From Nitrospinaceae bacterium (GTDB lineage Bacteria > Nitrospinota_A > UBA7883 > JAJDBK01): 64,000 bases of DNA. Each line of letters starts with the position of its first letter. Within the stretch, counting starts at the first letter, position 1. This document shows positions 1 to 12,058 of the stretch, piece after piece. The stretch spans positions 773 to 64,772 of the forward strand of contig JAJDBK010000048.1 of assembly GCA_029261405.1 (NCBI GenBank), given 5' to 3'. Below the pieces are notes generated by a model. That model saw nothing but the letters and a program-made list of their open reading frames with translations. It was not told where the DNA came from and did not search any database. The translations under genes were made by a program, and so were the position numbers.

Positions 1-650
1 TAACCTGCGTCTACAACTTTCCGCATGGCGCAAAGCCTTCTTTCAAGGTTGGCCGTTAAAAGTTCGTCGGTATCGATAACCTGTTGGGGGTTTAGGGTCC
101 AGGAGACCACCGTGCGTCCGCCGTGGTTAAGTTTTAGCAGATGATCGACGTTATCCGATTTTGTCTTAAGCTCCAGAAGAACATTCTTGTAACCGGCCAG
201 CCCCTCCACAAGTTCAGCCGAACCGTGCGTCAAAGGATCTACAGCGAGACTGTCACCAAGTTCCCACGACCCGATTCTGAAAAAACGATCTGGCTCTTTT
301 TCTGTCTTCTCAATAACTTCATCAATAATAGCTTTTGTGTCGCCAATCTGGGAGATGGCCGAGTCATTGAGATAACTTTGAAGGAAGCAGTATGAACACT
401 CGTATGGGCAGTTGCTTACCGACCGGAGAACATGGGCGTTGCAACAGATATAATCATCGCTCAACGATGCGCACAACCCTAAAGTCTCCCCCTTTTTACC
501 CGTTATATGAAGCCGGCTCTTCCCGTCACGGACAGACCCATCGACCGGCTTATCTTCAAGGGGCGAGACAATCCGTCCGCTCTCCTTCAGTTTTATGACC
601 GAGCCGCTATTCTCCTGTCCCGGCTCGAAAGTGAATTCTTTAAACGTCAT
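1..650 (-). CDS. Spore-photoproduct-lyase (SplB)-family radical SAM protein, N-terminal ~216 aa; the 3' end runs off the window
   Basis: Missing from the ORF track because it is open at the window edge. My translation from the ATG at 650 reads MTFKEFTFEPGQ...VSNCPYECSYCFLQSY (CX3CX2C triad followed by the LQ context of SplB)...FFRIGSWELGDSLAVDPLTHG...NVDHLLKLNHGGRTVVSWTLNP. This is colinear with B. subtilis SplB as I recall it. The ATG overlaps the upstream stop codon (ATGA). Confidence 0.7.
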   Translation of the reverse strand, partial: MTFKEFTFEPGQENSGSVIKLKESGRIVSPLEDKPVDGSVRDGKSRLHITGKKGETLGLCASLSDDYICCNAHVLRSVSNCPYECSYCFLQSYLNDSAISQIGDTKAIIDEVIEKTEKEPDRFFRIGSWELGDSLAVDPLTHGSAELVEGLAGYKNVLLELKTKSDNVDHLLKLNHGGRTVVSWTLNPQQVIDTDELLTANLERRLCAMRKVVDAG

Positions 651-1591
651 AATTTTGCTAACAGCTCTGTTATGCCGTCGGCGATATCAGGGTTGGCGAG
701 GTTTTTTACAACTACCGGAAAGTCCGCTCGATTCTTTATTATCAGCTCGATTTTTATCTCATGCAGTTCGAGACTTTTGTCCCACGATAATGTCGCGCCG
801 GGTGGCAACGACATATCATTGCGTATTATATCCATCTCGTTACTGATTGCCGTCAGGGCAGGGAGTCTCAATTCCCGGACGTACTCCCGAATGGCGTTGC
901 TCCTGTTATGCGGGGAAATATCCTCGTTCAGAATTTCGTTTACCTTTGCGTTGTTTTTTAAATCATCTACAGTCAATCCGTTTGCCTTAAGGTAGTCCCA
1001 CGTTCGCTCACACAGCTCTTCTATTATCGATGCCGTCAGATGCAGTTTATCGCTCCATGAAAAGACAAGCTTAACCAGCTCTACCGGCAGGCGGGTCAAT
1101 GCGAGAACCTTCTTCATCGGGAAATTTTTTTCGTGACAGAAATCGAGAACCAGAGTCGGCAGTGTCATGGCCGATTCGATCTTGCGTAACACCCGCTCGT
1201 GCGGCTCTAATTTCATCGCCTCGAAATATAGATCGCATACGTCGCTCCGCTTCAGACCGAGTCCTGTAGCGAAAACCGCCCATCGCGCTTTCGATATGAA
1301 AGATGAATTTTCGGTAAGGTTTACTTCATGGAAAACGATGTCTGTTATCTTTTCGACGGGTGTATCCGCTGGCAGGGTCGAGCATGGAACTGACCCGATT
1401 TTTTCCTGAAGCGCATATCCGTATCGTGCGAAACCGTCCACCAGATGACCGTCATGAACTACTACCGGAGTAAGAATACCGCTGGTACTCAAAGACCTGT
1501 ATAGAGCGATCGAACCGCTATTATCTATCTCTCGCAAAAACCGGTACTTCGAGTCAACAGCTTTGATGGAGTCGAGTGGTAATATCTTCAT
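647..1591 (-). CDS. ParB/Srx-like N-terminal domain protein (314 aa) with an uncharacterised helical C-terminal part
   Basis: The N-terminus ILPLDSIKAVDSKYRF...LYRSLSTSGILTPVVVHDGHLVDGFARYGYAL fits the ParBc pattern (I.l..I...R / L..SI...G.l.PiiV / DG.hR..A). The start lies 1 nt after the upstream stop, and its own stop overlaps the next start. Confidence 0.55.
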   Translation of the reverse strand: MKILPLDSIKAVDSKYRFLREIDNSGSIALYRSLSTSGILTPVVVHDGHLVDGFARYGYALQEKIGSVPCSTLPADTPVEKITDIVFHEVNLTENSSFISKARWAVFATGLGLKRSDVCDLYFEAMKLEPHERVLRKIESAMTLPTLVLDFCHEKNFPMKKVLALTRLPVELVKLVFSWSDKLHLTASIIEELCERTWDYLKANGLTVDDLKNNAKVNEILNEDISPHNRSNAIREYVRELRLPALTAISNEMDIIRNDMSLPPGATLSWDKSLELHEIKIELIIKNRADFPVVVKNLANPDIADGITELLAKL

Positions 1592-1592
1592 C

Positions 1593-3053
1593 TTATGAAT
1601 CGAGGGCCGCCAAGGCTGTTTCGTACTCTTCGATTTTTTCGTGTAGATCGCGCTTTAAACTTCCCTGAAGCAAAATGTTCAGCTTCTCCTGCAACACCTC
1701 AGTTATCTCCTTTCTGCAAGCGGGATCACTCTCCGAGTCAAGGGCCTTCGTGAGGGCTTTTACCCTGAAACGGTCCATCGCCTCATACTTTCGTGAAAGC
1801 TGATCTTCGTGACCTCCATGTTTTATCGTTGTCATCGATCCCTCAAGCCCTACCGGGTGATGGCGCGACAAGCGTAACCACAAATCGTAATCCTCGCAAG
1901 CTGGCAAAGATTCGTCAAAACCACCGTAAGCCTCCAAGAGACTCTTTTTAATTAGCGCCGTAGAGGGTGAGACAATGCACAGTTTCAACGATGGCTCAAA
2001 AATCCATCCTTCAGGTTTGGTGTGACGATGACGAGGGTTGACCCTTTTACCGTTTCTGATCCAGACCTCTTCGCTCTGCACAATTTCGTAAAACCGGTTC
2101 GACTCGATGAATTTTAATTGGCATTCCAGTTTCTTCTCCGTCCATTGATCGTCCGAATCGAGAAAAGCGATCCATTCGCCTGTAGCCTTCTTTACACCGA
2201 CGTTTCTGGCGCAGGAGACTCCACGGTTTTCATCGAGAGTTATCACCTTTATACTGTCGCCGAACACTTTTAGCGCTTCCGGGGTTCCATCAGTGGAACC
2301 GTCATCCACAACGATTATTTCATGTGCCGGAACTGATTGGGCCAGAACCGACTCTACACATTCGACGATTCTCTCCTTACGGTTATAAACCGGAATAATC
2401 ACAGAGACATCGCGGTTGACATCTGTCTTGAGGAAAGAAAGAGCTTTTTTCATTCCTTCCCGAACCGTGCCGAGCGCCTGACGATAATTTTTTTCGGCGT
2501 CCACCCCGGAATCGTCGGTAATCATCTTCACAGTATGAAAAGGAATGTTGCGGTTTCCAAATTCCTGCGCCAACGCAAAAACCTCCATATCGACGTAACC
2601 GTGTTCGCGCAAATTTTCGGGCCAGTCGCCGAAAATCGGACGACGAACAGAAACCATCGACCCGTTTATTGACCTCTCCTGTGTAAAAGGGAAGGGGAGC
2701 CGCTGATCTATCTTAATGCGGTTTCCATCTTCGTCGCATACGAGAGAAGGGGTGATCCAGACTCCGCTTTGTGAAATATCACCAACCGCGCCCGCTGTTC
2801 CGATATTGACAACGAAGAGAGGATCGAGATTCTCGCAGATCCATAAAGCCGCCCTCCTTGCGGCCTTAAGCCCGATACCGGTGATGAAGAAAAGAATTTC
2901 AGTATTGCCGGAGCTTGCGCCAAGTCCCACGATCGATTTTAGCTGAACGGAGCGCATGGTAATAATATCGACTCCGGTCGATTCGATCCAGTCAACCGGA
3001 ATTTCGTCCTTGCACGCAACGATGAATACGATCCGGTACTTCTTCTTTGCCAA
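1593..3053 (-). CDS. Fusion protein: N-terminal PNP_UDP_1 (Pfs/MTA-SAH nucleosidase, HpnG-like) domain plus C-terminal family-2 glycosyltransferase
   Basis: Nucleosidase motifs ITGIGLKAARRAA...VVNIGTAGAV and YVDMEVFALAQE...VKMITDDSG. GT2 motifs VSVIIPVYNR...IIVVDDGSTDGT...LDSDD...ACEDYDLWLR. TTG start preceded by GGAG with a 6-nt spacer. Confidence 0.75.
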   Translation of the reverse strand: MAKKKYRIVFIVACKDEIPVDWIESTGVDIITMRSVQLKSIVGLGASSGNTEILFFITGIGLKAARRAALWICENLDPLFVVNIGTAGAVGDISQSGVWITPSLVCDEDGNRIKIDQRLPFPFTQERSINGSMVSVRRPIFGDWPENLREHGYVDMEVFALAQEFGNRNIPFHTVKMITDDSGVDAEKNYRQALGTVREGMKKALSFLKTDVNRDVSVIIPVYNRKERIVECVESVLAQSVPAHEIIVVDDGSTDGTPEALKVFGDSIKVITLDENRGVSCARNVGVKKATGEWIAFLDSDDQWTEKKLECQLKFIESNRFYEIVQSEEVWIRNGKRVNPRHRHTKPEGWIFEPSLKLCIVSPSTALIKKSLLEAYGGFDESLPACEDYDLWLRLSRHHPVGLEGSMTTIKHGGHEDQLSRKYEAMDRFRVKALTKALDSESDPACRKEITEVLQEKLNILLQGSLKRDLHEKIEEYETALAALDS

Positions 3054-3116
3054 TCAAAACTCCTGTAGAATGACGGTGCGATCTATTTTACATTCATAAT
3101 TTGGTGTGTTGGCAAA

Positions 3117-3521
3117 ATGAAGTATGGCAGATTGAATATAATCGTTGGTTGTGTGGTCATATTCATTGCGGCGCTAGGCGGATTCGCCCTCGGATTCACC
3201 ATTGAGAACAATCTCAATGATGATATCTATATGGTAAGCTACACCCGGCTACTCCTGAAAGCGGGCCACACCCACGGAATGCCGTTCGCCCTCTACAACC
3301 TTATTATCGGTTCCCTTGCTGATCGACTGGAGCTTGCAGACAGAATGAAAAAACGGCTCTCTTACCTTGCCATCGGAACGCTTTTCATGCCGATCGGACT
3401 TATCCTGCGAGGTCTGACAGGCGGCGCCATGACCTTTGCGCCTGTGGTAATGATCGGGGCTCTCTGTTTCCTGGGGTCAACTGGAATAATGTTAAAAGGG
3501 GCCTTGGACTCCAGGGAGTAA
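3117..3521 (+). CDS. Small integral membrane protein (about 4 TM), function unknown
   Basis: Four hydrophobic helices and a conserved-looking LLLKAGHTHGM segment. The next ORF starts 3 nt downstream. Confidence 0.5.
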   Translation: MKYGRLNIIVGCVVIFIAALGGFALGFTIENNLNDDIYMVSYTRLLLKAGHTHGMPFALYNLIIGSLADRLELADRMKKRLSYLAIGTLFMPIGLILRGLTGGAMTFAPVVMIGALCFLGSTGIMLKGALDSRE

Positions 3522-3524
3522 CAG

Positions 3525-3755
3525 ATGAATCCAATTACATCCGCTATTATCGGCCTGTTTGCTTTCGGTCTTTTTATTCTGGCGTTGCGGCTTGGGATCA
3601 CCGTTGGTGGTCTTTTTCTTCTGCTGGCGGGAGGTGTTTTTACCGCATATTACCTCGGTTATTTTCAGGGAAGAAGAGCGCGCGACGACAAACCTCGCAA
3701 ACCGGGCGCCAGACCGGACGGTAACGGAGCGCCGGGGGGGGGGCCGCTGGTATAA
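3525..3755 (+). CDS. Small 2-TM membrane protein with a basic, Gly/Pro-rich tail
   Basis: ATG 3 nt after the upstream stop. Two clear TM helices. The tail contains the G10 tract. Confidence 0.4.
   Translation: MNPITSAIIGLFAFGLFILALRLGITVGGLFLLLAGGVFTAYYLGYFQGRRARDDKPRKPGARPDGNGAPGGGPLV
3734..3743. repeat. Homopolymeric G10 tract
   Basis: Read directly: gcc-GGGGGGGGGG-ccgctggtataa. It encodes GGG near the C-terminus of the 3525..3755 ORF. Confidence 0.95.
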
Positions 3756-4343
3756 TCAGGGGCAGGTTTTGTTGAGCCGGGTAAACCTTGATTTCACCCA
3801 CGGGATTCGGAAAACGAACAGGAACGCCATCATAGCCAGATAGACAAGCGCCTCGCTCTTCTCCTTTTTCAGCAACCAGTAGAAGTGCAACACCGCAATG
3901 GCCGTGGCCGGGTATACCAGCAGGTTTATAACCACGGCGTAATTTCTGAGACGGACGGCTCCGAACCTGAAAGATGTTATGGCTCTCGGTGTAATCAGGA
4001 GCAGAGCCGTCAGTCCCGCCAGAACGTATGGTTTCGTAAAAATGCCGTCACTTATGAGGTTGTAGTCGAACCTGTAATCGACTCCGAAAAAGATGAAAGC
4101 GTGCAGGACGGCGTAGAAGTATGTGTACAGACCGGTGAGTCTTCTGAAAGTCAGTGCACTGGCGCGTCCGGTTATGATCCTGGTGATGGTAATGGTGTGG
4201 GTTACGAGGAGCAGGGTAAGGGCGGCGTTTCCGGTTCTGTGGGTGACATCTTCAATCGGATTAGGCGACAGTTGTCCGAAATATATGTCCCAACAAATCG
4301 CTGTTAGCGGCAGAAGAGCCAGAACATGAGCGGCGAACCTCAA
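3756..4343 (-). CDS. msrQ: Protein-methionine-sulfoxide reductase haem-binding membrane subunit MsrQ (YedZ)
   Basis: Six-TM ferric-reductase-like protein directly downstream of msrP. The N-terminus (...SPNPIEDVTHRTGNAALTLLL...) is typical of YedZ. Confidence 0.8.
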   Translation of the reverse strand: MRFAAHVLALLPLTAICWDIYFGQLSPNPIEDVTHRTGNAALTLLLVTHTITITRIITGRASALTFRRLTGLYTYFYAVLHAFIFFGVDYRFDYNLISDGIFTKPYVLAGLTALLLITPRAITSFRFGAVRLRNYAVVINLLVYPATAIAVLHFYWLLKKEKSEALVYLAMMAFLFVFRIPWVKSRFTRLNKTCP

Positions 4344-4345
4344 TT

Positions 4346-5212
4346 CTAAAAATTCCGTTTCAGATCGAGACCTTTGTACAGTGAACTGACCTGCTTCCCG
4401 TATCCGTTGAACATGAGGGTTTTGCGTCTCAAAAAATCGCCTATCCGTCGTTCCGAGGCTTGAGACCAGCGGGGGTGGCTTACGTTCGGATTTACGTTGG
4501 CGTAAAATCCGTATTCGGACGGACCCGATTGCATCCAGAGGCTTTGTGGTTTTTCTTTTACCAGTTCAATCTTCACAATAGACTTGATACTCTTGAAACC
4601 GTACTTCCACGGAACTACAAGCCGTACCGGCGCTCCGTTTTGCGGTTTTAGAGGTTTGCCGTCAATTCCCGTTGCCAGAAGAGTGAGCGGGTGACGGGCC
4701 TCGTCCATAGTAAGCCCCTCCACGTAAGGCCACGGAAAAGAGCCGCTCTTCTGTCCCGGCATCCGATTTTTGTCGTAGAGGGAGACGAAACGGACATATC
4801 TGGCGTCAGAGGTCGGCTCAACTTTTTTCAGCAACTCGCTAAGCGCAATTCCCTCCCAGGGAATAACCATAGACCACGCCTCGACGCAACGCATTCTGTA
4901 AACACGTTCGACTTTATCAAAACCTCTCCTGATATCATCCAAATCGAAAATTCCGGGGTTTTTTACAAGCCCGTCAACCTTGATCGACCAGGGGTAGGTT
5001 TTAAAGTCGGCTGATAACTCTTTTACTTCGGTTTTGTTTGTGGAGAATTCGTAAAAGTTGTTGTAGCTGGTAATGGCCGAGTAGCTGGTAACAGTATCAC
5101 CAAGCTCATCCTTAAGGTCGGCCCGTGCGGCGCTGGATAACCCGGCAAACCCGGTTGCCGAAACGCCAATAACTGTGGCTACACCCTTTTTCAGGAATTT
5201 TCGTCTATCCAT
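4346..5212 (-). CDS. msrP: Protein-methionine-sulfoxide reductase molybdopterin catalytic subunit MsrP (YedY), TAT-exported
   Basis: Twin-arginine signal MDRRKFLKKG...AARA. Sulfite-oxidase-family core (YRMRCVEAWSMVIPWEG, VRLVVPWKYGFKSIKSIVKIEL). Confidence 0.85.
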   Translation of the reverse strand: MDRRKFLKKGVATVIGVSATGFAGLSSAARADLKDELGDTVTSYSAITSYNNFYEFSTNKTEVKELSADFKTYPWSIKVDGLVKNPGIFDLDDIRRGFDKVERVYRMRCVEAWSMVIPWEGIALSELLKKVEPTSDARYVRFVSLYDKNRMPGQKSGSFPWPYVEGLTMDEARHPLTLLATGIDGKPLKPQNGAPVRLVVPWKYGFKSIKSIVKIELVKEKPQSLWMQSGPSEYGFYANVNPNVSHPRWSQASERRIGDFLRRKTLMFNGYGKQVSSLYKGLDLKRNF

Positions 5213-5229: not shown

Positions 5230-6045
5230 TTACATACCTTTTTCGAGCCTGCGAATTGTAAAGAGAGTTTCTTCAAGTTTCTGGTTGTATTTGACGTTGC
5301 TGTTTTTCAGAACTGTTTTATGGGTTATGCTCTTGCCCCGCTTTGTGGTCATGGTTATTTCCAGCGAGGTCCAGATACCGTCAATGAGTTCGAGTTGTTT
5401 GACATCCAGATATTTTCTTTTTGAACCATCCTTCTCCCAATGGACCGCCCGCACCACAACGAAGTTGTCCTGGCGGATCAGGACGATAGACTTTGTATAC
5501 CCGGTCTCTTCTATTACATCCTGGTTTCTGGGAGTAGACTCGATTACCCACACCTTTTCGCCCCTGACTTCCGCCTCCTTGAGCAGTTTGAAATCGTAGT
5601 CGGTCAGATTTTTCGAGGACATATCAGAATAGTTGAAGTCCGAACCCATGAAACTTCCGCTCTTGTCCGAAGACGCGATTCTTTTTGTCTTCTTTAAAGC
5701 CGGAAGGTAGAGCCACTGGTCGTCGTCTTTCTCTTCGTCGTCGTAATCGTAGGTAAGAAACCCGGTGTTCTTTACGTCGGCCGGACTCAGAAAAAACATC
5801 AGCTTGTAGGAGTCCTCCCCGATATCTTTTGAGAAGAATCTGATATTGCGTTTACGTTCCGATCCGTTCTTGTCGATTAAGGTCATCTCCATATCGGAGA
5901 TCATGTTATCACCGTCATCACGGGCGTCCATCTTTTCCATGATGGCGCGGGCTTTCTTGTCGTCGGCCATAGCCTGCCCGCCAAGTGTGACAAAAAACGC
6001 CAGGAGCAAAAATATCGTGACGCTGATTTTCTTTATATATGACAT
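5230..6045 (-). CDS. LolA-like outer-membrane lipoprotein-sorting family protein (periplasmic partner of the adjacent RND exporter)
   Basis: Signal peptide, then MDARDDGDN...WLYLPALKKTKRIASSDKSGSFMGSDFNYSDM, typical of this family. I prefer the ATG at 6045 (MSYIKK...), 1 nt after the RND stop, over the track start at 6069. Confidence 0.7.
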   Translation of the reverse strand: MSYIKKISVTIFLLLAFFVTLGGQAMADDKKARAIMEKMDARDDGDNMISDMEMTLIDKNGSERKRNIRFFSKDIGEDSYKLMFFLSPADVKNTGFLTYDYDDEEKDDDQWLYLPALKKTKRIASSDKSGSFMGSDFNYSDMSSKNLTDYDFKLLKEAEVRGEKVWVIESTPRNQDVIEETGYTKSIVLIRQDNFVVVRAVHWEKDGSKRKYLDVKQLELIDGIWTSLEITMTTKRGKSITHKTVLKNSNVKYNQKLEETLFTIRRLEKGM

Positions 6046-6046
6046 C

Positions 6047-8464
6047 TCAATCATCCTTATGATACACAAGTTTCATCAAGGCTGGCGCCAGGAAAAAATC
6101 GGCCAGAAGCGCGCAGATTATCGTAATGCCTGTGAGCAGTCCGAAGTTAAAGAGGTTTTTCATGGTGGCGAACATGAATATAAAAAATCCGGATGAGAGT
6201 ACAATAGTGGTAACGATCATGGCTCTCCCGGTGGTTAGCAAAGTTTCCCTCACTGCTGTTGCAACGTTTCCGGTTTTAGCGAAATACTTTCGGAAATTGT
6301 GCATGAAATGTACGGTGTCATCCACCGCCATCCCTATGGCTATCGATCCGATCAGCATGGTGAACATATCGAGGGGAGTTCCCTTGAGACCCATTATCCC
6401 GATGATAAATATTATGGGGAAAAAATTAGGAATCATGGCGATAGCGCCCATTCTGACACTACCTACAAGTAACATCATCATAACTGTTATGACGAATCCG
6501 GCTATGACATAACTTTTTGCCGCGCTATGGATAGCGGCGCTCAAGGTTCGTCCCAACAGGGCAATAAGGCCGGTAGCGCTGATTTTGGCCTCCTGTCCGA
6601 ATACCTCCCTGAACCTGCTCTCAATATGTGTCATAAACTTTCCGTAAACGATTGCGTCGAGCCAGCCGGTTTTGATGGTGAACCTTGCTTTGGTGAACTG
6701 GCTGTCGCTAAAATCCTCCATATCATCAGAACCTGAGTTTTCGAAAAGGAGAAACTCCTGGGCGATCAGCTTGCGGTTGTCAGGCGTTTTGTAATACTCC
6801 GGCCTGTTTTCGTTTAACGCCCGGTTGGTCTCTTTTAAAATATCCGTAATGGCGATGGTTTTTCCAACTAACACCTTTCCGATCTGGGCGCCGGTAAGCT
6901 CGACAGCCAAACCGTCGATCTTTTTCAGGATTGCAGGATCGTATAGACCATTCTCCTTGCCGGTGTCGATAATCACCTCAAGGGTTGTGGAGCCTTTCAT
7001 ATTTTTATCAATTCGCTCGGTGGCAATCCGTATTTCCGAATCTTCTGGGAACCAGACCAGCGGGTTGTGCGAGAAATAGACTGTGGAGGCAAACGCGCCT
7101 GCAATAACCAGAATGACCAGAAATATCGCTACCACACTTTTTGCGTAGGTTGTCGATATATCGGCCACACCGATCAACAACCTGTCGAGAGTCGATGATC
7201 TTTCCCTATGGTGATCCTTCGTACCTTTCTCTACAGGGAACAGGGATATGAGCGCAGGTAACAATACGACTGTATATATGAATCCAAGCATTACGCCGAA
7301 TGCGGCGAACATGCCCAGGTCGGCTATGGGGGCGACTTCGGCGGTGGAGAAAGATCCGAGGCCTGCGGCGGTGGTGACGCTTGTCATCAGTATGGCAATG
7401 CCGGAATGCTCCACCGTCCATATGATCGCGTCTCGTTTATTCTCTCCGTTTTCAATACGGTAATAAAATATCGCCAGGATATGGACTGCGTCACCGACAC
7501 AGACAGCCATAAGAAAGGAGGGGATTATCTGGGTTGGCAGTTTTATGGGGACTCCGAAGGCGGCCATAAGGCCTATGGTGGATAGTACCGACAGGATCAC
7601 TATGGCCAATGAAAAAACGACAGCCGACACCCGCCTGAACGTGATGAAGAGTAATAAAGAGATAATCAGGATCGCCATGACCATGAACTTGCGCATGTCA
7701 CTCATCATGCTGGCTTTCAGGGTCCGTGTTACGACTGGCGAACCGGCGATAGTTATCATGAAATCGGCGGTGTCATATTTCTTTGCTATCTCGCGGACAG
7801 CGTCCACCACGGCGTTGTTCTGGGTATCCGTAAGGGAGGGTCTTGACCTGTCCCCTTTCGGTGGAGGCCCCGGACTCTCCTCCTCTTCAAATCCTTCGAG
7901 AGCGTCTTCCGTCGATTCTGTCTCATCGGCGAAACCGTGGGTCTTGATAACAATGGTTGTGAACGCTCCGTCCTCTGATACAAGCAGGTTTTTGTAGAAC
8001 GGATTCGACATCACTTTTTTCCGCAGACTCTTCAGATCCTCTTCGGTTTCCGGGAAATTTTCCAGCAGATCCTCGACGATTAACTCGCTCTCTTTACCCA
8101 GGGTGTTACGGGCGTTGACCATGCTGGTTATGTCGTCGAGATACGGAACGTTATTCTCGAACTCGTTATGGAGTGACTTTAGCTTTTGAAGGAATTTTAC
8201 ATTAAACAGGTCGGGTGGTTTTATCGCCACGAGAATCATTTCATCCCGACCGAACTGTTGGCGGAAATCGTAATAGTCAACCAACGCCGGATCGTCAGCG
8301 TGCAAAAATCCCTCTGTCGAGGTGTCAATGGTCAGTTTCGGCAAGTTGGAGAGAATGACCGCCACAAACAAAAATAGCCCGAACAGGGCTTTGAGCCTGT
8401 TGTCGTAGATCCACCCTGTTGTTTGACCAAACATTTTTTCAATGCGATTGCGCATCTCTTCCAT
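6047..8464 (-). CDS. RND-superfamily exporter (MMPL/HpnN-like, two 6-TM bundles)
   Basis: 805 aa. The N-terminal region DDPALVDYYDFRQQFGRDEMILVAI is typical of this group. Two repeated TM bundles and two periplasmic loops. Confidence 0.8.
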   Translation of the reverse strand: MEEMRNRIEKMFGQTTGWIYDNRLKALFGLFLFVAVILSNLPKLTIDTSTEGFLHADDPALVDYYDFRQQFGRDEMILVAIKPPDLFNVKFLQKLKSLHNEFENNVPYLDDITSMVNARNTLGKESELIVEDLLENFPETEEDLKSLRKKVMSNPFYKNLLVSEDGAFTTIVIKTHGFADETESTEDALEGFEEEESPGPPPKGDRSRPSLTDTQNNAVVDAVREIAKKYDTADFMITIAGSPVVTRTLKASMMSDMRKFMVMAILIISLLLFITFRRVSAVVFSLAIVILSVLSTIGLMAAFGVPIKLPTQIIPSFLMAVCVGDAVHILAIFYYRIENGENKRDAIIWTVEHSGIAILMTSVTTAAGLGSFSTAEVAPIADLGMFAAFGVMLGFIYTVVLLPALISLFPVEKGTKDHHRERSSTLDRLLIGVADISTTYAKSVVAIFLVILVIAGAFASTVYFSHNPLVWFPEDSEIRIATERIDKNMKGSTTLEVIIDTGKENGLYDPAILKKIDGLAVELTGAQIGKVLVGKTIAITDILKETNRALNENRPEYYKTPDNRKLIAQEFLLFENSGSDDMEDFSDSQFTKARFTIKTGWLDAIVYGKFMTHIESRFREVFGQEAKISATGLIALLGRTLSAAIHSAAKSYVIAGFVITVMMMLLVGSVRMGAIAMIPNFFPIIFIIGIMGLKGTPLDMFTMLIGSIAIGMAVDDTVHFMHNFRKYFAKTGNVATAVRETLLTTGRAMIVTTIVLSSGFFIFMFATMKNLFNFGLLTGITIICALLADFFLAPALMKLVYHKDD

Positions 8465-8653: not shown

Positions 8654-8739
8654 GTGGCCGAGCCACTCGCTGTGGCCGAGCCACTCGCTGTGGCCGAGCC
8701 ACTCGCTGTGGCCGAGCCACTCGCTGTGGCCGAGCCACT
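8654..8739. repeat. Tandem repeat: 18-bp unit GTGGCCGAGCCACTCGCT x4 plus a 14-bp partial fifth copy
   Basis: Read directly. All units are identical. Each contains the hairpin GTGGC-cga-GCCAC. It lies in the divergent intergenic region between the RND operon and the MCP gene. Confidence 0.95.
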
Positions 8740-8866
8740 TTAATCTGTTCGCAGGTCGGCGGACGCGGTTTCACATGTTACAATGTCGTCGCGATTTCCA
8801 TGCTGAACCAGCGAACAAAACAATTGTTTGTTTGAATTTATTTTCAAAAACATCAGGAGGGGTGTT

Positions 8867-11800
8867 ATGTCGGATATTTCCAGGCGTGAAACAATACCGG
8901 CGAAGACGCCGATGGTATCCAAAACTGAAAAGAAACGGTTCTCGATGAAAAAACTGGGGCCGAAACTTCTTTGCGCCTTTCTGGGCGTGGGGCTTATTCC
9001 CTTTGCCATTCTGGCGCTTGTTACGATAAACCAATCGTCAGACGCGTTGTCGGAGAACGCCTTTAATCAGCTCGAAGGTGTGCGGGAGATAAAAAAAGCT
9101 CAGGTTGAGAAGTTCATTGGTGATAGGCGTACCGACCTTAATTCGCTTATCACCAACGTCAAGAATCTGAGGCAGGCCGCTTTCGACAAGTTGGAAGCTG
9201 TCAAATCGATCAAACGATCTGCGCTGGAAAAATACTTCCAGACTATCCGGGATCAGGTAATGACCTTTTCCGAGAACCGGATGGTTGTGGAGAATATGCG
9301 GTACTTCACCGAGGAGTTCAAGACGTATCGCATGCAAAACGACATAATGGTCCAGGAAGTCGATAAATGGCGCGCGGAACTGGCTACATATTATACCGGT
9401 GAGTTTACCGAAGAGTATAAAAAACAGAATAACGGCGCCGACCCTAACGCCATCAGGTTCCTCGAAATGCTCGATAACGACTCAATAGCTCTCCAGCGAC
9501 AATTCATCAGGGCCAATAAGAACCCGTTAGGCTCCAAGCATCTGCTCGACAAGATTGAAGGCGATATGTCCGATTACGGCGCCAGCCATGAAAAATTCCA
9601 TCCTGTCGTCAGGAGTTATCTCGAAAAATTCGGCTATTACGACATCTTTCTTGTCGATTCCGAATCGGGGGATGTCGTCTATTCGGTCTACAAGGAGCTA
9701 GATTACACAACGTCTCTCATAGACGGTCCTTACGCCAAAACTAATCTCGGCGAAGCTTTCCGGCTTGCCAGCGCTGATACGGCTAAAAAAGATGACGTAT
9801 TCCTGGTCGATTTTAAAACGTATACCCCCTCCTACGAAGGGCAAGCAGGCTTTATCGCTTCCCCGATATTTGAGGATGGCGAAAAAATCGGTGTGGCGAT
9901 ATTTCAGATGCCGATTGACCGAATCAACGATATAGTCAACGAGCGGACCGGGCTTGGCAAGACCGGTGAGAACTACCTGGTGGGTGAACAGGATGGAAAG
10001 ACCTACTACCGTTCAAAACGTGTCGTCAAAAAAGGTGAAATAGGTCAACCGAAGTCTGGCGCCGAGATAAACAGAGCTATCGCAGGTGAAGTCGGATCAA
10101 CGATCAAAACAGGTAGTTCCGGGTCTATGGAGATGGCCAGTTTCGCTCCCCTAAATATCCCCGGTGTTAAATGGATGATAAACAGCGCTGTTTCGTTGGA
10201 AGAGGCGATCGCTCCGATCCTAAAGGGTGAGAAAGATGATGTGTTCGCAAAATATATCAAGGATTATGGTTATTACGATCTCTTTTTAATAAATAACAGT
10301 GGTTTTGTCTTCTATTCGGTAACCAAAGAGGACGATTACCAGACCAACATGGCGACAGGAAAATACAAAGACTCCGGGCTGGGCGAACTTACCCGAAAGG
10401 TATTGAGTTCCAAGGAGTTCGGGTTCGCCGACTTTAAACCTTACGCTCCGAGCAACGGTGACCCGTGCGCATTCATCGCAATGCCGCTTGTTGTGGACGG
10501 GAAGGTGGAGATGATTGTAGCCCTTCAGTTATCCCTTGAGGCGTTAAACGATATCATGCAACAGCGAGAGGGAATGGGAGAGACTGGTGAAACATACCTT
10601 ATAGGCTCGGACAAGCTGATGAGGTCAGATTCTTTCCTCGACCCTGTTAACCATACCGTGAAAACTTCTTTTGCCAACCCCGCTAAAGGGAGTGTCGATA
10701 CGGAAGCTGGTAATGAGTCGATAGCCGGAAAGACAGGCTCCAAAATTATCATCGACTACAACGGCAATCCGGTTCTTTCCGCCTTTACACCGGTAAAGGT
10801 CTTCGATGTTACATGGGGTCTCATCGCAGAAAAAGATGAGTCTGAAGCGTTCGCGGCCATCGTGGCCATGGAATGGCTCATGGGCGTAATCGCAGTGATA
10901 GGCGTATTGTGTATCATCGCCGTAGCCGTCCTGATTACTCGCTCCATTGTGAATCCGGTGACCGCTACGGTCGCGGTTATCAAGGAGATCGCCGAAGGGG
11001 ATTTCACCAGGGAGATCGAAGTCAAGAGCGAGGATGAAATCGGGGAGTTGGCGGCGTCGGTAAACGCGATGGTAGTTGACCTGAGGAGTGTGATGACCGA
11101 AATCGGGGAATCGTCAAACTCAGTGGCGTCTTCGTCAGAAGAGCTTTCCAACGTGACCACCGAGCTTGCCAGTAGCTCCGAAGAGATGACCTCCCAGTCT
11201 ACTGCGGTTGCCGGCGCAACGGAACAGATGTCGGCCAACATCAACTCCATGGCTTCGGCGGTGGAAGAGGCCAGTGTTAACGCAGATACGGTTTCGAGTA
11301 CAGCGGAGCAGATGTCATCCAATATGGGCGCCATCTCAAGCGCGGTGGAGGAGATGACCGTATCAATAGGTGAGGTTTCCAAGAACGCCAGGGACGCCTC
11401 TGGCATAGCCACCAAGGCTTCGGAGCAGTCGAAATCCGCCACGGCGACGATGCACTCCCTCGGCGCCTCCGCCAGGGAGATCGGGAAGGTGACCGAGATG
11501 ATTACCCAGATCTCAGGCAAAACCAATCTACTGGCGTTAAACGCAACTATCGAAGCGGCCTCCGCTGGTGAAGCGGGCAAAGGTTTCGCCGTTGTCGCCA
11601 ACGAGATCAAGGAACTTGCCAACCAGAGCGCGAAGGCGGCTGACGAGATTACGGAGAAGATTGAAGGTGTTCAGAGTAGCTCTGAGGACGCAATCAAGGT
11701 TATTACCGAAATCTCGGATATCATTGAGCAGATAAACAGTTCAGTCGATGTTATCACCACCGCTATGGAGCAACAGACGAAAGCGGCGAACGAGGTATCG

Positions 11801-12058
11801 CAGAATGTTATGGAAGTTTCGAGCGGCGCCAACGAAATCGCCTCTTCAATCGCCGAAGTGGCCAAAGGCGCTTCAGAAGTCGCCCGCAACGCCGGTGAAG
11901 CGGCCAAAGGCGCCAACGAGGTATCGTCGAACATTCAGGGGATCAGCGCCGCCATCGCACAGAACAGTTCCGGTGTGCAGAGTATAGACACATCCGCTAC
12001 CGAGCTTGCGGGTATAGCTCAAAGGTTGCAGAGTCTTCTGGAGCGGTTCAAGGTTTAG
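8867..12058 (+). CDS. Methyl-accepting chemotaxis protein with a large duplicated Cache-type periplasmic sensor, HAMP and MA domains
   Basis: ATG at 8867 preceded by AGGAGG. TM1 at [19 protein letters not shown] and TM2 at [25 protein letters not shown] follows, then the signalling hairpin ...[37 protein letters not shown]. The track start at 8828 is probably too long. Confidence 0.9.

What the first reader, a model, noticed from the sequence alone, without database searches (positions are those of the whole stretch)
1..3053. Translationally coupled operon: nucleosidase-GT2 fusion, ParB-like protein, SplB-like radical SAM enzyme (candidate DNA-directed modification or repair module)
Seen in the sequence: three minus-strand genes joined by a 1-nt gap (TAA-g-ATG at 1591-1595) and a 4-nt ATGA overlap (647-650), so they are almost certainly co-translated. 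Established knowledge: SplB-family radical SAM enzymes act directly on DNA through a 5'-deoxyadenosyl radical. ParB N-terminal domains are DNA-associated (CTPase clamp or nuclease-like) and recur in DNA-modification systems, for example DpdB. Pfs/HpnG-type nucleosidases either clear 5'-deoxyadenosine or remove adenine from adenosylated intermediates. GT2 enzymes transfer sugars. Inference: nothing else in the window suggests a spore former (Gram-negative envelope genes), so classical spore-photoproduct repair is an unlikely role. The combination points to a multi-step chemistry on DNA or on an adenosylated substrate. I do not recognise this combination as a described system. The 3' end of the radical SAM gene and anything further downstream lie outside the window.
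Basis: partly seen in the sequence, partly recalled or inferred. Interest (0 to 1): 0.7.

Follow-up and report, generated by a model that had tools for sequence, protein, structure and literature searches.

The report
Conserved ParB-like/radical-SAM glycosylation cassette
The three genes are a real, tightly coupled operon and one copy of a widespread but uncharacterised cassette, in which a relative of a DNA-repair radical enzyme travels with its own ParB-like partner, an adenosine-cleaving enzyme fused to a sugar transferase, and often a reductase; this probably builds an unknown sugar-decorated modification, possibly on DNA.

Summary
Three minus-strand genes (3053-1593, 1591-647, 650-<1) are joined by TAA-g-ATG and an ATGA overlap.

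- Gene 1 is an MTAN-type nucleosidase fused to a GT2 glycosyltransferase. Catalytic residues of both domains are invariant.
- Gene 2 is a true ParB/Noc-like protein. Pfam misses it; a family profile and an AlphaFold2 model do not.
- Gene 3 is an SPL-family radical SAM enzyme but not an SplB orthologue.

In 84 related loci from more than 10 phyla (almost all MAGs), the ParB-like gene lies directly upstream of the radical SAM gene in 65 of 75. The fusion lies upstream in 30 of 64. A fourth gene, an aldo-keto reductase, lies downstream in 31 of 73. It is not seen in the sequence available for this organism.

A distant second clade repeats the same chemistries as GT2, nucleosidase, SPL-family radical SAM and an SDR reductase, without ParB.

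My best reading (about 0.35) is hopanoid-side-chain-like logic: radical adenosylation, adenine removal, reduction to a polyol, then glycosylation. In this clade the ParB-like partner would direct it to DNA.

I found no phage, plasmid or defence-system link and no published description. The function is untested.

The parts
1593..3053 (-). Gene 1: fusion of an MTAN-family nucleosidase (aa 1-210, about nt 3053-2424) and a soluble GT2 glycosyltransferase (aa 211-486, about nt 2423-1593). TTG start.
   Evidence: ORF. Pfam GT2 7e-38 and PNP_UDP_1 31 bits. The N-domain profile hits MTAN at about 1e-14. E17, D155-M156-E157 and D180 (MTAN E12, E174 and D197 equivalents), the DxD D299/D301/D302, and E387-D388 are invariant in 29 of 29. 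AlphaFold2 pLDDT 91.9, pTM 0.90. Foldseek top hits are WrtF, TarS, TarP, RmlT and CgT.
3060..3064 (-). Shine-Dalgarno AGGAG, 6 nt upstream of the TTG start of gene 1.
   Evidence: Read from the sequence.
647..1591 (-). Gene 2: ParB/Noc-like protein (314 aa). It has a ParB/Srx N-domain with a DGFxR motif (G53, R56), a ParB-type central helical (HTH) region, and a family-specific C-terminal domain (P244, W270-D271, L274-E275).
   Evidence: No Pfam hit alone. The family profile hits Spo0J, Noc and ParB at 3e-13 to 1e-12, and SbnI and sulfiredoxin at about 7e-5. AlphaFold2 pLDDT 96.5. Foldseek finds ParB, KorB, Noc and Spo0J. The family has 139 representatives at E<1e-30. Conservation.
1..650 (-). 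Gene 3 (5' part, 216 of 360 aa): SPL-family radical SAM enzyme, here called clade I. It has the CxxxCxxC motif at C81/C85/C88 plus invariant C60, C69, C70 and C323. C323 lies outside the window.
   Evidence: Translation. Full length from L001. Pfam SPL 86.8 bits. PDB SPL 4fhc at about 1e-18. TIGR04070 105 bits against a cut-off of 400. Residue conservation in 74 of 74. Comparison with real SplB.
1589..1595 (-). Junction of genes 1 and 2: TAA-g-ATG, a 1-nt gap.
   Evidence: Sequence.
647..650 (-). Junction of genes 2 and 3: ATGA, a 4-nt overlap of stop and start.
   Evidence: Sequence.

Best explanation
The operon is one copy of a conserved, vertically co-inherited four-enzyme cassette: [MTAN-like nucleosidase-GT2 fusion], [ParB/Noc-like protein], [SPL-family radical SAM enzyme] and, often, [aldo-keto reductase].

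Proposed mechanism. Every step is inferred unless marked as shown.

1. The SPL-family enzyme works as a pair with its ParB-like partner. Shown: the two genes are adjacent and translationally coupled.
2. The enzyme cleaves SAM and adds the 5'-deoxyadenosyl radical to an sp2 carbon of its substrate. HpnH does this to diploptene and MqnE to its substrate. The adduct radical is quenched by the invariant active-site Cys60, or through the extra Cys69/70/323 site.
3. The fused MTAN-type nucleosidase removes adenine from the adduct, as HpnG and MqnB do. This leaves a 5-deoxyribos-5-yl group with a free aldehyde/hemiacetal.
4. The AKR reduces it to a C5 polyol. In the sister clade an SDR would do this.
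5. The GT2 domain glycosylates the ribosyl or polyol chain.

In this clade the acceptor is most likely a pyrimidine in DNA. The reasons are the SPL ancestry, the retained equivalents of the SPL phosphate-binding R273 and K309, and a partner with a ParB-type DNA-binding core. The product would then be a glycosylated polyol appendage on DNA.

Shown: the anatomy, conserved synteny, conserved catalytic residues, and non-identity with SplB and with partition ParB. Inferred: adenosylation, the order of steps, and the substrate.
For: Synteny:
- The ParB-like gene lies directly upstream of the SPL-like gene in 65 of 75 loci. Nuc-GT2 lies upstream in 30 of 64, and AKR downstream in 31 of 73.
- When Nuc-GT2 is not linked, it is found elsewhere in the same MAG (L094 with L039, L096 with L031, L258 with L045).
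- Distance matrices of the four proteins are correlated, with Mantel r of 0.77-0.93.

An independent, distant clade repeats the same four chemistries with a non-orthologous reductase. It is 25-29% identical and has more than 585 genome hits. The order there is GT2, separate nucleosidase, SPL-family radical SAM, SDR. In 77 loci SDR is present in 56, the nucleosidase in 37 and GT2 in 29.

All the enzymes look active:
- MTAN catalytic residues are invariant in the fusions and in the stand-alone clade II nucleosidases.
- The AKR tetrad D41/Y46/K74/H115 is present in 34 of 34.
- The GT2 DxD motif is invariant.

From my own knowledge, dedicated adenosyl-nucleosidases inside radical SAM operons occur where the adenosyl group stays on the product (HpnG, MqnB). 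The HpnH, HpnG, BHT, HpnI sequence is described in PMC13459092.

The best structural matches of the GT2 include the ribitol-phosphate glycosylating enzymes TarS, TarP and RmlT. This is weak support only.

Support for DNA as substrate:
- The two characterised SPL-fold enzymes both act on DNA: SPL (PMC3467042) and phage M6 gp53 (PMC8989533).
- R261 and K291, the equivalents of R273 and K309, are invariant in clade I.
- The partner matches ParB, Noc and KorB through the N-domain and the HTH region.
Against: - No biochemical data exist for any member.
- SPL-family enzymes are known for H-abstraction, not adenosylation. Nothing in the sequence distinguishes the two.
- The nucleosidase and reductase could simply dispose of 5'-deoxyadenosine and 5-deoxyribose.
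- 18 of 60 fully flanked loci carry only the ParB-like/SPL-like pair. The window's own organism shows no AKR in the 64 kb window or in the roughly 230 bp known beyond gene 3.

Against DNA as the substrate:
- The tip of the SPL beta-hairpin, thought to flip the lesion out, is deleted.
- The proteins are not basic.
- The cassette is absent from phages and plasmids and has no restriction or defence neighbour.
- GT2 orthologues at about 50% identity occur as stand-alone genes in many genomes.
- Clade II has no ParB-like gene and lacks the K309 equivalent.
- ParB/Srx proteins can be small-molecule kinases and regulators, for example SbnI.
Confidence: 0.35

Rival explanations
1. The enzymology is the same or similar (a radical SAM step, then nucleosidase, reductase and GT2), but it acts on a non-DNA substrate such as a small molecule, lipid or cell-envelope polyol or glycoconjugate. 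The ParB-like protein would be an SbnI-like NTP-dependent kinase and/or operon regulator, not a DNA-targeting subunit.
For: - The context is chromosomal and housekeeping-like, with no GC anomaly.
- There is no mobile-element, phage, plasmid or defence signal.
- The GT2 resembles TarS, TarP, RmlT and WrtF envelope glycosyltransferases. It has stand-alone orthologues at 45-53% identity in Leptospira, Desulfobacterota and others.
- Clade II works without any ParB-like gene.
- The ParB-like profile also hits SbnI, a serine kinase and regulator inside a biosynthetic operon, and sulfiredoxin.
- The ParB CTP-pocket boxes I and III are not conserved; only G53 and R56 are.
- The beta-hairpin tip is lost. 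The pI is acidic to neutral.
Against: - A mere regulator would not be expected to stay translationally coupled to one enzyme across more than 10 phyla while diverging to about 26% identity.
- The strongest profile and structure matches are DNA-clamp ParB, Noc and KorB, including the HTH region.
- Clade I keeps the SPL residues that bind the dinucleotide phosphate.
- Both characterised SPL-fold enzymes act on DNA.
Confidence: 0.3
2. The ParB-like/SPL-like pair is a direct-reversal DNA repair system for an SP-like or other pyrimidine lesion in non-spore-formers. The nucleosidase and reductase only clear the radical SAM by-product (5'-dA to 5-deoxyribose to 5-deoxyribitol). The GT2 is functionally unrelated or peripheral.
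For: - The pair alone is the most conserved unit; 18 of 60 loci are pair-only.
- The closest solved relative is SPL.
- Y96, R273 and K309 equivalents are kept, and a Cys occupies the Clostridium-type H-donor position (C60).
- One locus has a Tag DNA glycosylase gene directly after the AKR.
Against: - The Bacillus Cys141 and Tyr99 equivalents and the hairpin tip are missing. The score is far below the SPL cut-off.
- The GT2 is physically fused to the nucleosidase, with a confidently predicted fixed domain arrangement (pTM 0.90). It co-diversifies with the radical SAM gene (Mantel r = 0.93), which is hard to call peripheral.
- From my own knowledge, radical SAM operons do not normally carry private by-product disposal genes.
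- The same four functions recur in clade II.
Confidence: 0.15
3. An anaerobic 'base-J-like' route. The SPL-like enzyme abstracts H from a pyrimidine C5-methyl group. The extra Cys site (a possible auxiliary Fe-S cluster) oxidises the radical to a hydroxymethyl base, and the GT2 glycosylates it. The nucleosidase clears 5'-dA.
For: - SPL chemistry proceeds through the thymine allylic (methyl) radical.
- Four extra invariant Cys are confined to the ParB-associated clade.
- The hosts are mostly anaerobes or microaerophiles, where O2-dependent TET/JBP chemistry is unavailable (record titles; the inference is mine).
- From my own knowledge, the base-J glucosyltransferase has a GT-A fold.
Against: - It gives no role to the conserved AKR or SDR.
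- It does not explain why a nucleosidase is fused to the GT2.
- An auxiliary cluster is only inferred from the Cys pattern, and C60 aligns with an H-donor Cys rather than a cluster ligand.
- There is no restriction partner or phage association.
Confidence: 0.1
4. Nothing special: an ordinary SplB, a degenerate partition or plasmid ParB, and an unrelated cell-wall glycosyltransferase that happen to be adjacent.
For: Public annotations call these proteins 'DNA photolyase', 'spore photoproduct lyase' and 'glycosyltransferase'.
Against: - Synteny is conserved across more than 10 phyla.
- There is no ParA or plasmid context.
- Gene 3 fails the SplB equivalog test and lacks two of the SplB radical-relay residues.
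- The ParB-like family is a discrete family of about 320 aa with its own C-terminal domain.
Confidence: 0.02

Closest known systems
Spore photoproduct lyase SplB (TIGR04070; PDB 4FHC-4FHG)
   Same: - Same Pfam family (PF20903) and the same CxxxCxxC radical SAM core. About 26% identity.
- Equivalents of Gt Tyr96 (Y87), the SAM-binding Lys174 (K164), Arg273 (R261) and Lys309 (K291) are kept.
- A Cys (C60) sits at the Clostridium-type H-donor position.
   Different: - It scores 105 bits against a cut-off of 400.
- The Bacillus Cys141 position is Glu and the Tyr99 (Gt Y98) position is Phe.
- There is a 10-residue deletion of the beta-hairpin tip (R304/Y305).
- It has three further invariant Cys (C69, C70, C323) and a 40-aa C-terminal extension.
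- There is no SplA, the hosts are not spore-formers, and it has an obligate ParB-like neighbour.
Phage M6 gp53, an SPL-like radical SAM isomerase that installs a thymidine hypermodification in DNA (PMC8989533)
   Same: It is an SPL-fold radical SAM enzyme working inside a multi-enzyme DNA base hypermodification pathway. This is the precedent that SPL relatives can modify DNA rather than repair it.
   Different: - M6 gp53 is phage-encoded and works with a 5-hmdU kinase, aGPT-Pplase and a PLP decarboxylase.
- It has no ParB-like protein, nucleosidase, GT2 or AKR.
- Clade I is essentially absent from phage collections.
- Homology to gp53 was not tested directly.
Hopanoid side-chain pathway: HpnH (radical SAM adenosylation), HpnG (nucleosidase/phosphorylase), reduction to BHT, HpnI (GT2) (PMC13459092)
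   Same: It has the same set of four chemistries: a radical SAM enzyme, an adenosyl-nucleosidase, a carbonyl reduction and a GT2. The nucleosidase domain gives a weak HpnG hit of 29.9 bits.
   Different: - The radical SAM enzyme belongs to the SPL family, not the HpnH family.
- The HpnG score is far below the cut-off of 187.
- There is no shc or hpn gene nearby, and the window's RND pump is HAE3, not HpnN.
- A ParB-like partner has no counterpart in the hopanoid pathway.
ParB/Noc/KorB CTP-dependent DNA clamps, and ParB-superfamily partners of DNA-modification enzymes (DndB; DpdB from my own knowledge)
   Same: - It has a ParB/Srx N-domain and a ParB-type central helical domain.
- It is paired with a DNA-chemistry-type enzyme, as DndB is with DndACDE (PMC10853773).
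   Different: - There is no ParA or parS context.
- The GERRxRA and ENLQR boxes are reduced to G53 and R56.
- It has its own C-terminal domain.
- There are no PADLOC hits to Dnd or Dpd components.
SbnI, a ParB/Srx-fold serine kinase and regulator of the staphyloferrin B operon (PDB 5UJD, 6NR6)
   Same: It is a ParB/Srx-fold protein encoded inside a biosynthetic operon. It is hit by the family profile at about 7e-5.
   Different: The match covers only the N-domain (positions 31-86). The matches to ParB and Noc are much stronger and extend into the HTH region.
MTA/SAH nucleosidase (MTAN/Pfs), aminofutalosine nucleosidase, MqnB
   Same: The profile match is about 1e-14, and the E12, E174 and D197 equivalents are invariant.
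   Different: - It is far below every NCBIfam cut-off.
- It is fused N-terminally to a GT2, or is a separate operon gene in clade II.
- The 5'-substituent specificity is unknown.
The uncharacterised 'clade II' cassette: GT2, nucleosidase, SPL-family radical SAM, SDR (for example Solemya velum symbiont, Methylobacter tundripaludum)
   Same: The GT2 is orthologous (45-53% identity), the nucleosidase is homologous, the radical SAM enzyme is of the SPL family, and an NAD(P)H reductase lies downstream.
   Different: - It has no ParB-like gene.
- The radical SAM enzyme is only 20-29% identical and lacks C60, C69, C70 and K291.
- The reductase is an SDR rather than an AKR.
- Public annotation is only 'DNA photolyase' or 'SPL family radical SAM protein'.

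Membership tests
Spore photoproduct lyase (SplB, TIGR04070) | Radical SAM CxxxCxxC cluster motif and the SPL Pfam domain | tested here: met
   C81/C85/C88 are invariant. PF20903 scores 86.8 bits against a cut-off of 27.
Spore photoproduct lyase (SplB, TIGR04070) | Whole-protein score at or above the equivalog cut-off (400 bits) | tested here: not met
   105 bits for the full-length protein and 117 bits for a homologue.
Spore photoproduct lyase (SplB, TIGR04070) | H-atom-donor cysteine (Bacillus Cys141 / Gt Cys140, or Clostridium Cys77) | tested here: inconclusive
   The Cys141 position is Glu130 in 70 of 74. The Clostridium-type position aligns with the invariant C60. The alignment in that N-terminal stretch is of modest quality.
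Spore photoproduct lyase (SplB, TIGR04070) | Radical-relay tyrosine (Bs Tyr99 / Gt Tyr98) | tested here: not met
   Phe89 in 74 of 74. The Tyr97/Tyr96 equivalent, Y87, is kept.
Spore photoproduct lyase (SplB, TIGR04070) | Long beta-hairpin with Arg304/Tyr305 at the tip for lesion flipping | tested here: not met
   There is a 10-residue deletion at this site in clades I and II. The feature is described in PMC3467042.
Spore photoproduct lyase (SplB, TIGR04070) | Spore-former host and splA-splB context | tested here: not met
   The hosts are Nitrospirota, Desulfobacterota, Gammaproteobacteria, Margulisbacteria and others. The upstream gene is ParB-like, not SplA (compare).
Partition ParB / Noc / KorB (CTP-dependent DNA clamps) | ParB/Srx N-terminal fold followed by a central HTH DNA-binding domain | tested here: met
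   The profile hits at 3e-13 to 1e-12 over positions 4-179. Foldseek probability is 1.00 over 205-260 aligned columns.
Partition ParB / Noc / KorB (CTP-dependent DNA clamps) | CTP-pocket motifs (box I QPR, box II GERRxRA, box III ENLQR) | tested here: not met
   Only G53 (99%) and R56 (96%) of box II are conserved. S14 (86%) is the only other conserved residue nearby, and box III is not conserved.
Partition ParB / Noc / KorB (CTP-dependent DNA clamps) | ParA partner or parS/plasmid context | tested here: not met
   No ParA-type gene is among the conserved neighbours. The conserved neighbour is the radical SAM gene.
Partition ParB / Noc / KorB (CTP-dependent DNA clamps) | NTP binding/hydrolysis and DNA binding | not testable with these tools
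   This needs biochemistry.
MTA/SAH nucleosidase family (MTAN, MqnB, HpnG) | Catalytic Glu12, Glu174 and Asp197 equivalents | tested here: met
   E17, D155-M156-E157 and D180 are invariant in 29 fusions. They are also kept in the 36 clade II proteins, apart from D155, which is Glu in 9 of 36.
MTA/SAH nucleosidase family (MTAN, MqnB, HpnG) | Score above a curated equivalog cut-off (MTAN, HpnG or futalosine hydrolase) | tested here: not met
   The best scores are 36.8, 30.7 and 29.9 bits, against cut-offs of 129, 161 and 187.
GT2 glycosyltransferases (GT-A fold, Leloir type) | PF00535 domain, DxD motif, GT-A fold | tested here: met
   E=7e-38. D299-S-D301-D302 is invariant. Foldseek E is about 3e-16 to TarS, TarP and WrtF. 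No NCBIfam equivalog cut-off is reached.
Hopanoid side-chain pathway (hpnH-hpnG-hpnI) | HpnH-family radical SAM enzyme, shc/hpn neighbourhood, HpnN transporter | tested here: not met
   The radical SAM enzyme is of the SPL family. HpnG scores 29.9 bits against a cut-off of 187. The neighbouring RND transporter is HAE3, with HpnN at 111 bits against a cut-off of 752.
Known ParB-containing DNA modification/defence systems (Dnd, Dpd and others in PADLOC) | Significant match of any cassette protein to a PADLOC model | tested here: not met
   There are no meaningful hits. The best E-values are 0.025 and 6e-4, to unrelated models.

The most novel reading that the evidence does not exclude
A chromosomally encoded bacterial DNA hypermodification of a new chemical class. 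An SPL-derived radical SAM enzyme, loaded on DNA by a dedicated ParB-like partner, would covalently add the 5'-deoxyadenosyl radical to a DNA base. The adduct would then be trimmed by the nucleosidase, reduced by the AKR and glycosylated by the GT2 to a sugar-capped C5 polyol. This would be the first radical adenosylation of a nucleic acid. It would be an anaerobe-compatible analogue of base J, present in at least ten phyla.
Probability: 0.2. Interest if true: 0.95.

Novelty: new variant of a known kind. Interest (0 to 1): 0.72.

Why it matters
SPL has long been treated as an isolated DNA-repair oddity of spore-formers. These data show that its relatives form two very large uncharacterised clades. 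There are thousands of metagenomic clusters and more than 585 genome hits for clade II alone, including culturable methanotrophs. Both clades are embedded in conserved operons with an adenosyl-nucleosidase, a carbonyl reductase and a glycosyltransferase. One clade also has a private ParB-like partner.

If the adenosylation reading is right, this is a third independent use of radical adenosylation, after hopanoids and futalosine, and possibly the first on DNA. If the substrate is not DNA, it defines a new widespread glycoconjugate or metabolite pathway and a new enzymatic or regulatory role for a ParB/Srx protein.

Either way, the current database labels ('DNA photolyase', 'spore photoproduct lyase', 'cell-wall glycosyltransferase') are probably misleading. 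The cassette is compact enough, at about 4 kb, to test by heterologous expression.

Tried and rejected
1. A word-index search with the ParB-like protein gave only 3 hits. The exhaustive profile search showed the family is large.
2. The search for related loci with the 71-sequence ParB-like alignment failed because the alignment is too divergent. I switched to the SPL-like alignment.
I reran it with A7.
4. Hopanoid link: rejected. The nearby RND pump is HAE3, not HpnN, the HpnG score is far below its cut-off, and there is no shc.
5. Phage anti-restriction or defence system: rejected. Phage collections hold only relatives at about 26% identity, plasmids hold only canonical splB, and PADLOC gives no hits.
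6. Genomic island: no GC or skew anomaly. One related locus has a tRNA gene directly upstream, but this is not general.
7. Riboswitch or leader RNA that would name a ligand: none in six loci.
8. An AKR elsewhere in the window: none.
9. Protein charge or pI as a proxy for nucleic-acid binding: uninformative.
10. Literature: eight searches found no description of the combination, and a ninth was rejected for its syntax. The library lacks most subscription-journal papers, so absence is not proof.
11. The first exact-sequence look-up used wrong end coordinates. It was corrected.
12. Weak viperin (pVip) hits to the radical SAM motif region were judged to be motif-level only.

Full report
**1. What is in the window**

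Three minus-strand ORFs fill positions 1-3053.
- Gene 1 runs 3053..1593 and encodes 486 aa. It starts at a TTG that has an AGGAG 6 nt upstream.
- Gene 2 runs 1591..647 and encodes 314 aa.
- Gene 3 starts at 650 and runs off the window edge. The window holds 216 aa of it.

Consensus scans found no minus-strand promoter-like site and a single weak terminator-like site inside gene 3, no more than expected by chance. The GC content matches the neighbouring DNA.

An overlapping public contig, L001, supplied the full 360-aa gene 3 product and about 230 bp beyond it. No further cassette gene follows there.

**2. Identity of the three proteins**

Gene 1 is a two-domain fusion.
- Residues 217-376 are a textbook GT2 domain (PF00535, E=7e-38). 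The DxD motif and the E-D pair are invariant.
- Residues 1-210 are a divergent member of the MTA/SAH-nucleosidase family. Pfam PNP_UDP_1 only just passes its threshold (31 bits against 25.1). A profile of the domain hits many MTAN structures at about 1e-14, as well as aminofutalosine nucleosidases.
- The equivalents of MTAN Glu12, Glu174 and Asp197 (E17, D-M-E155-157, D180) are invariant in all 29 full-length fusions examined.
- The AlphaFold2 model is confident for the whole protein (pLDDT 91.9, pTM 0.90), which suggests a fixed arrangement of the two domains.
- Its GT2 half is closest to WrtF, to the ribitol-phosphate-glycosylating TarS, TarP and RmlT, and to CgT.

- An exhaustive profile search found a discrete family of proteins of about 320 aa, with 139 representatives at E<1e-30.
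- A 71-sequence profile hits Spo0J, Noc and ParB at 3e-13 to 1e-12 over positions 4-179. That span covers the N-domain and part of the HTH region.
- The AlphaFold2 model (pLDDT 96.5) retrieves ParB, KorB, Noc and Spo0J as its top Foldseek matches.
- Of the ParB CTP-pocket motifs, only the superfamily-wide G..R (G53, R56) survives.
- The C-terminal third (P244, W270-D271, L274-E275) is specific to this family.

Gene 3 belongs to the SPL Pfam family (86.8 bits). Its closest solved relative is spore photoproduct lyase, at about 1e-18. It is nonetheless not an SplB orthologue.
- It scores 105 bits against TIGR04070, whose cut-off is 400.
- I aligned it with genuine Bacillus and Clostridium SplB and read the alignment against the SPL structure paper (PMC3467042).
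- It keeps the cluster motif, Gt Tyr96 (Y87), the SAM-binding Lys174 (K164), and the two residues that hold the intra-lesion phosphate, Arg273 (R261) and Lys309 (K291).
- Glu replaces the Bacillus H-donor Cys141. Phe replaces the relay Tyr99 (Gt Tyr98). The ten residues that form the tip of the lesion-flipping beta-hairpin are absent.
- An invariant Cys (C60) aligns with the alternative, Clostridium-type H-donor position.
- Three more Cys (C69, C70, C323) are invariant in 74 of 74 family members. They may form a second metal or Fe-S site or a thiol relay. This is inference only.

**3. Comparative genomics**

Using the SPL-like alignment I collected 80 genome loci and several metagenome loci. 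Almost all are MAGs or single-cell genomes. They come from Nitrospirota/Thermodesulfovibrionia, Desulfobacterota, Gammaproteobacteria, Bdellovibrionota, Margulisbacteria, Elusimicrobia, Acidobacteriota, Cloacimonetes, Deferribacteres, Binatota, Nitrospinota and others.

Among 84 non-redundant loci:
- A ParB-like gene lies immediately upstream of the SPL-like gene in 65 of the 75 loci with enough flank.
- The nucleosidase-GT2 fusion lies upstream in 30 of 64.
Its catalytic tetrad is intact in 34 of 34.
- Fifteen of 60 fully flanked loci have all four genes. Eighteen have only the pair.

Where the fusion is not adjacent, it can be elsewhere in the same MAG (L094 with L039, L096 with L031, L258 with L045).

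Pairwise distance matrices of the four proteins are strongly correlated, with Mantel r of 0.77-0.93. This fits inheritance as a unit, although shared phylogeny contributes to the correlation.

The other neighbours are lineage-specific housekeeping genes. The closest relative, on a 762-kb contig (L257), shares even the two small divergent membrane-protein genes. Like the window's organism, it has no AKR directly downstream. No AKR is present anywhere in the 64-kb window.

**4. A second, independent clade with the same chemistries**

The GT2 domain has orthologues at 45-53% identity in many more genomes. Beside a subset of them I found a different cassette: GT2, a separate PNP/MTAN-like nucleosidase, a distant SPL-family radical SAM enzyme, and an SDR reductase. 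It has no ParB-like gene.
- The radical SAM enzyme is 20-29% identical to gene 3. It lacks C60, C69, C70 and K291.
- This clade II is very common, with more than 585 genome hits. It occurs in cultured methanotrophs such as Methylobacter tundripaludum and Methyloglobulus morosus.
- In 77 loci the SDR follows the radical SAM gene in 56. A nucleosidase precedes it in 37 and a GT2 in 29.
- Its nucleosidases keep the same catalytic residues.
- Public annotation is only 'DNA photolyase' or 'SPL family radical SAM protein'.

So radical SAM, adenosyl-nucleosidase, NAD(P)H reductase and GT2 recur together in two deeply separated clades, and the reductase has been displaced by a non-orthologous one (AKR versus SDR). 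This is the strongest evidence that all four belong to a single pathway.

**5. Mechanism**

To my knowledge, dedicated adenosyl-nucleosidases inside radical SAM operons occur where the 5'-deoxyadenosyl radical is added to the substrate rather than used for H-abstraction.
- One case is HpnH and HpnG in hopanoid side-chain synthesis. There the product is reduced to a tetrol and then glycosylated by the GT2 enzyme HpnI (PMC13459092).
- The other is MqnE with MqnB or MTAN in the futalosine route.

The cassette reproduces that four-step logic with unrelated or distantly related parts. I therefore propose this sequence: radical adenosylation by the SPL-family enzyme, adenine removal by the fused nucleosidase, reduction of the exposed aldehyde by the AKR or SDR, and glycosylation by the GT2.

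For the substrate in clade I, I favour a DNA pyrimidine. The reasons are these:
- The two characterised SPL-fold enzymes both act on DNA. They are SPL and phage M6 gp53, the latter as a modification enzyme (PMC8989533).
- The equivalents of SPL's phosphate-binding residues are invariant.
- The enzyme is coupled to a ParB/Noc-like protein. ParB-superfamily partners accompany other DNA-modification enzymes, such as DndB (PMC10853773).

Confidence differs by layer:
- That this is a genuine functional module, distinct from SplB repair and from partition: about 0.85-0.9.
- The adenosylate-trim-reduce-glycosylate logic: about 0.4-0.5, summed over substrates.
- DNA as the substrate: about 0.45.
- The full chain on DNA: about 0.2. 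The 0.35 given for the best explanation lies between this and the chemistry-only figure, because DNA is named there only as the most likely acceptor.

**6. Evidence that cuts the other way**

- The hairpin tip used by SPL to flip the lesion out is missing.
- The proteins are not basic.
- There is no phage, plasmid, island, restriction or defence association.
- The GT2 looks like an envelope polyol or glycan glycosyltransferase and is often a stand-alone gene.
- Clade II needs no ParB-like protein.
- ParB/Srx proteins can be small-molecule kinases and regulators. SbnI, which is one, is hit by the profile.
- A third of the loci carry only the pair.
- The nucleosidase plus reductase could merely detoxify 5'-dA and 5-deoxyribose.

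These points sustain three rivals: the same chemistry on a non-DNA substrate (0.3), SPL-like direct repair with by-product disposal (0.15), and H-abstraction-based hydroxylation followed by glycosylation (0.1).

**7. Novelty and verdict**

Eight full-text searches found no description of this gene combination, and a ninth was rejected for its syntax. Curated libraries (NCBIfam, PADLOC) have no model for it. The paper library lacks most subscription-journal papers, so a prior description cannot be excluded.

The parts belong to known superfamilies. The architecture, the private ParB-like partner of a radical SAM enzyme, and the implied chemistry are not described. I rate it a new variant of known kinds: ParB-assisted nucleic-acid modification modules, or radical-adenosylation pathways. 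There is a real chance that the product is categorically new. Interest is 0.72.

Noticed in passing
L009:11149-12111, L004:3741-4760, L024:11019-12110 and 28 other loci (outside the window): An aldo-keto reductase with an intact catalytic tetrad is a fourth, frequently present member of the cassette, directly downstream of the SPL-like gene. It is absent from the window and from the roughly 230 bp known beyond gene 3 in this organism.
   Followed up: yes
L104:5971-8629, L152:5974-9449, L178-L256: There is a second, very common cassette: GT2, stand-alone MTAN-like nucleosidase, distant SPL-family radical SAM, SDR reductase. It has no ParB-like gene. It occurs in Gammaproteobacteria, Alphaproteobacteria, Acidobacteriota and others, including cultured methanotrophs (Methylobacter tundripaludum, Methyloglobulus morosus). 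In Methylococcales, only the radical SAM and SDR pair is present.
   Followed up: partly
L119:5983-6876 (Leptospira interrogans), L109, L166 and many loci in L094-L173: Stand-alone GT2 orthologues (45-53% identical to the GT2 half of gene 1) occur in many genomes with no SPL-family gene nearby. In several Desulfobacterota they follow a Dus gene and an IspH(LytB)-UbiA fusion gene. Their acceptor substrate is unknown, which bears on the DNA versus non-DNA question.
   Followed up: partly
L092:10238-10909: In one gammaproteobacterial MAG, a DNA-3-methyladenine glycosylase I (Tag, PF03352) gene follows the AKR on the same strand, after ParB-like, SPL-like and AKR.
   Followed up: no
window 8654-8739: A perfect 18-bp tandem repeat (GTGGCCGAGCCACTCGCT, 4.8 copies, 100% identical) lies in the intergenic region between the RND transporter gene and the large methyl-accepting chemotaxis-type gene (8828-12058).
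   Followed up: no
window 3117-3521 and 3525-3755 (+ strand); L257:6249-6898: Two small predicted membrane proteins (134 and 76 aa) are divergently transcribed from the operon. They are syntenic in the closest relative (128 and 76 aa), so they may share a regulatory region with the cassette. Only a faint Pfam SOI hit is on record.
   Followed up: no
L001:5527-5720 (just beyond the window's left edge): Directly after the stop of the SPL-like gene there is a short reading frame ending ...ELLLDILKHGEEVEVLSPPSLRDLVIGRLENSFKQYRE*. It reads like the C-terminal end of a WYL/YafY-type regulator with no N-terminal part, so it may be a gene remnant where other genomes have the AKR. I did not verify this by a search.
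   Followed up: no
window 3756-5212 and 5230-8464 (- strand): Adjacent genes are MsrQ/MsrP (periplasmic methionine sulfoxide reductase; MsrP scores 424 bits), then a LolA-like lipoprotein and an HAE3-family RND transporter (not HpnN). They are ordinary and not conserved next to the cassette elsewhere.
   Followed up: yes
L024:7364-7436: A tRNA gene lies about 60 bp upstream of the Nuc-GT2 gene in an uncultured Desulfobacterales MAG. It is seen in only one of the six loci scanned, so it is no general sign of an integrated element.
   Followed up: no
L257:10562-12646: In the closest relative, the genes convergent with the cassette encode a SAM hydroxide adenosyltransferase-like protein (SAM_HAT_N/C, called as two genes) and a MiaB-like radical SAM enzyme. 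This is probably coincidental, but both use SAM or adenosine.
   Followed up: no
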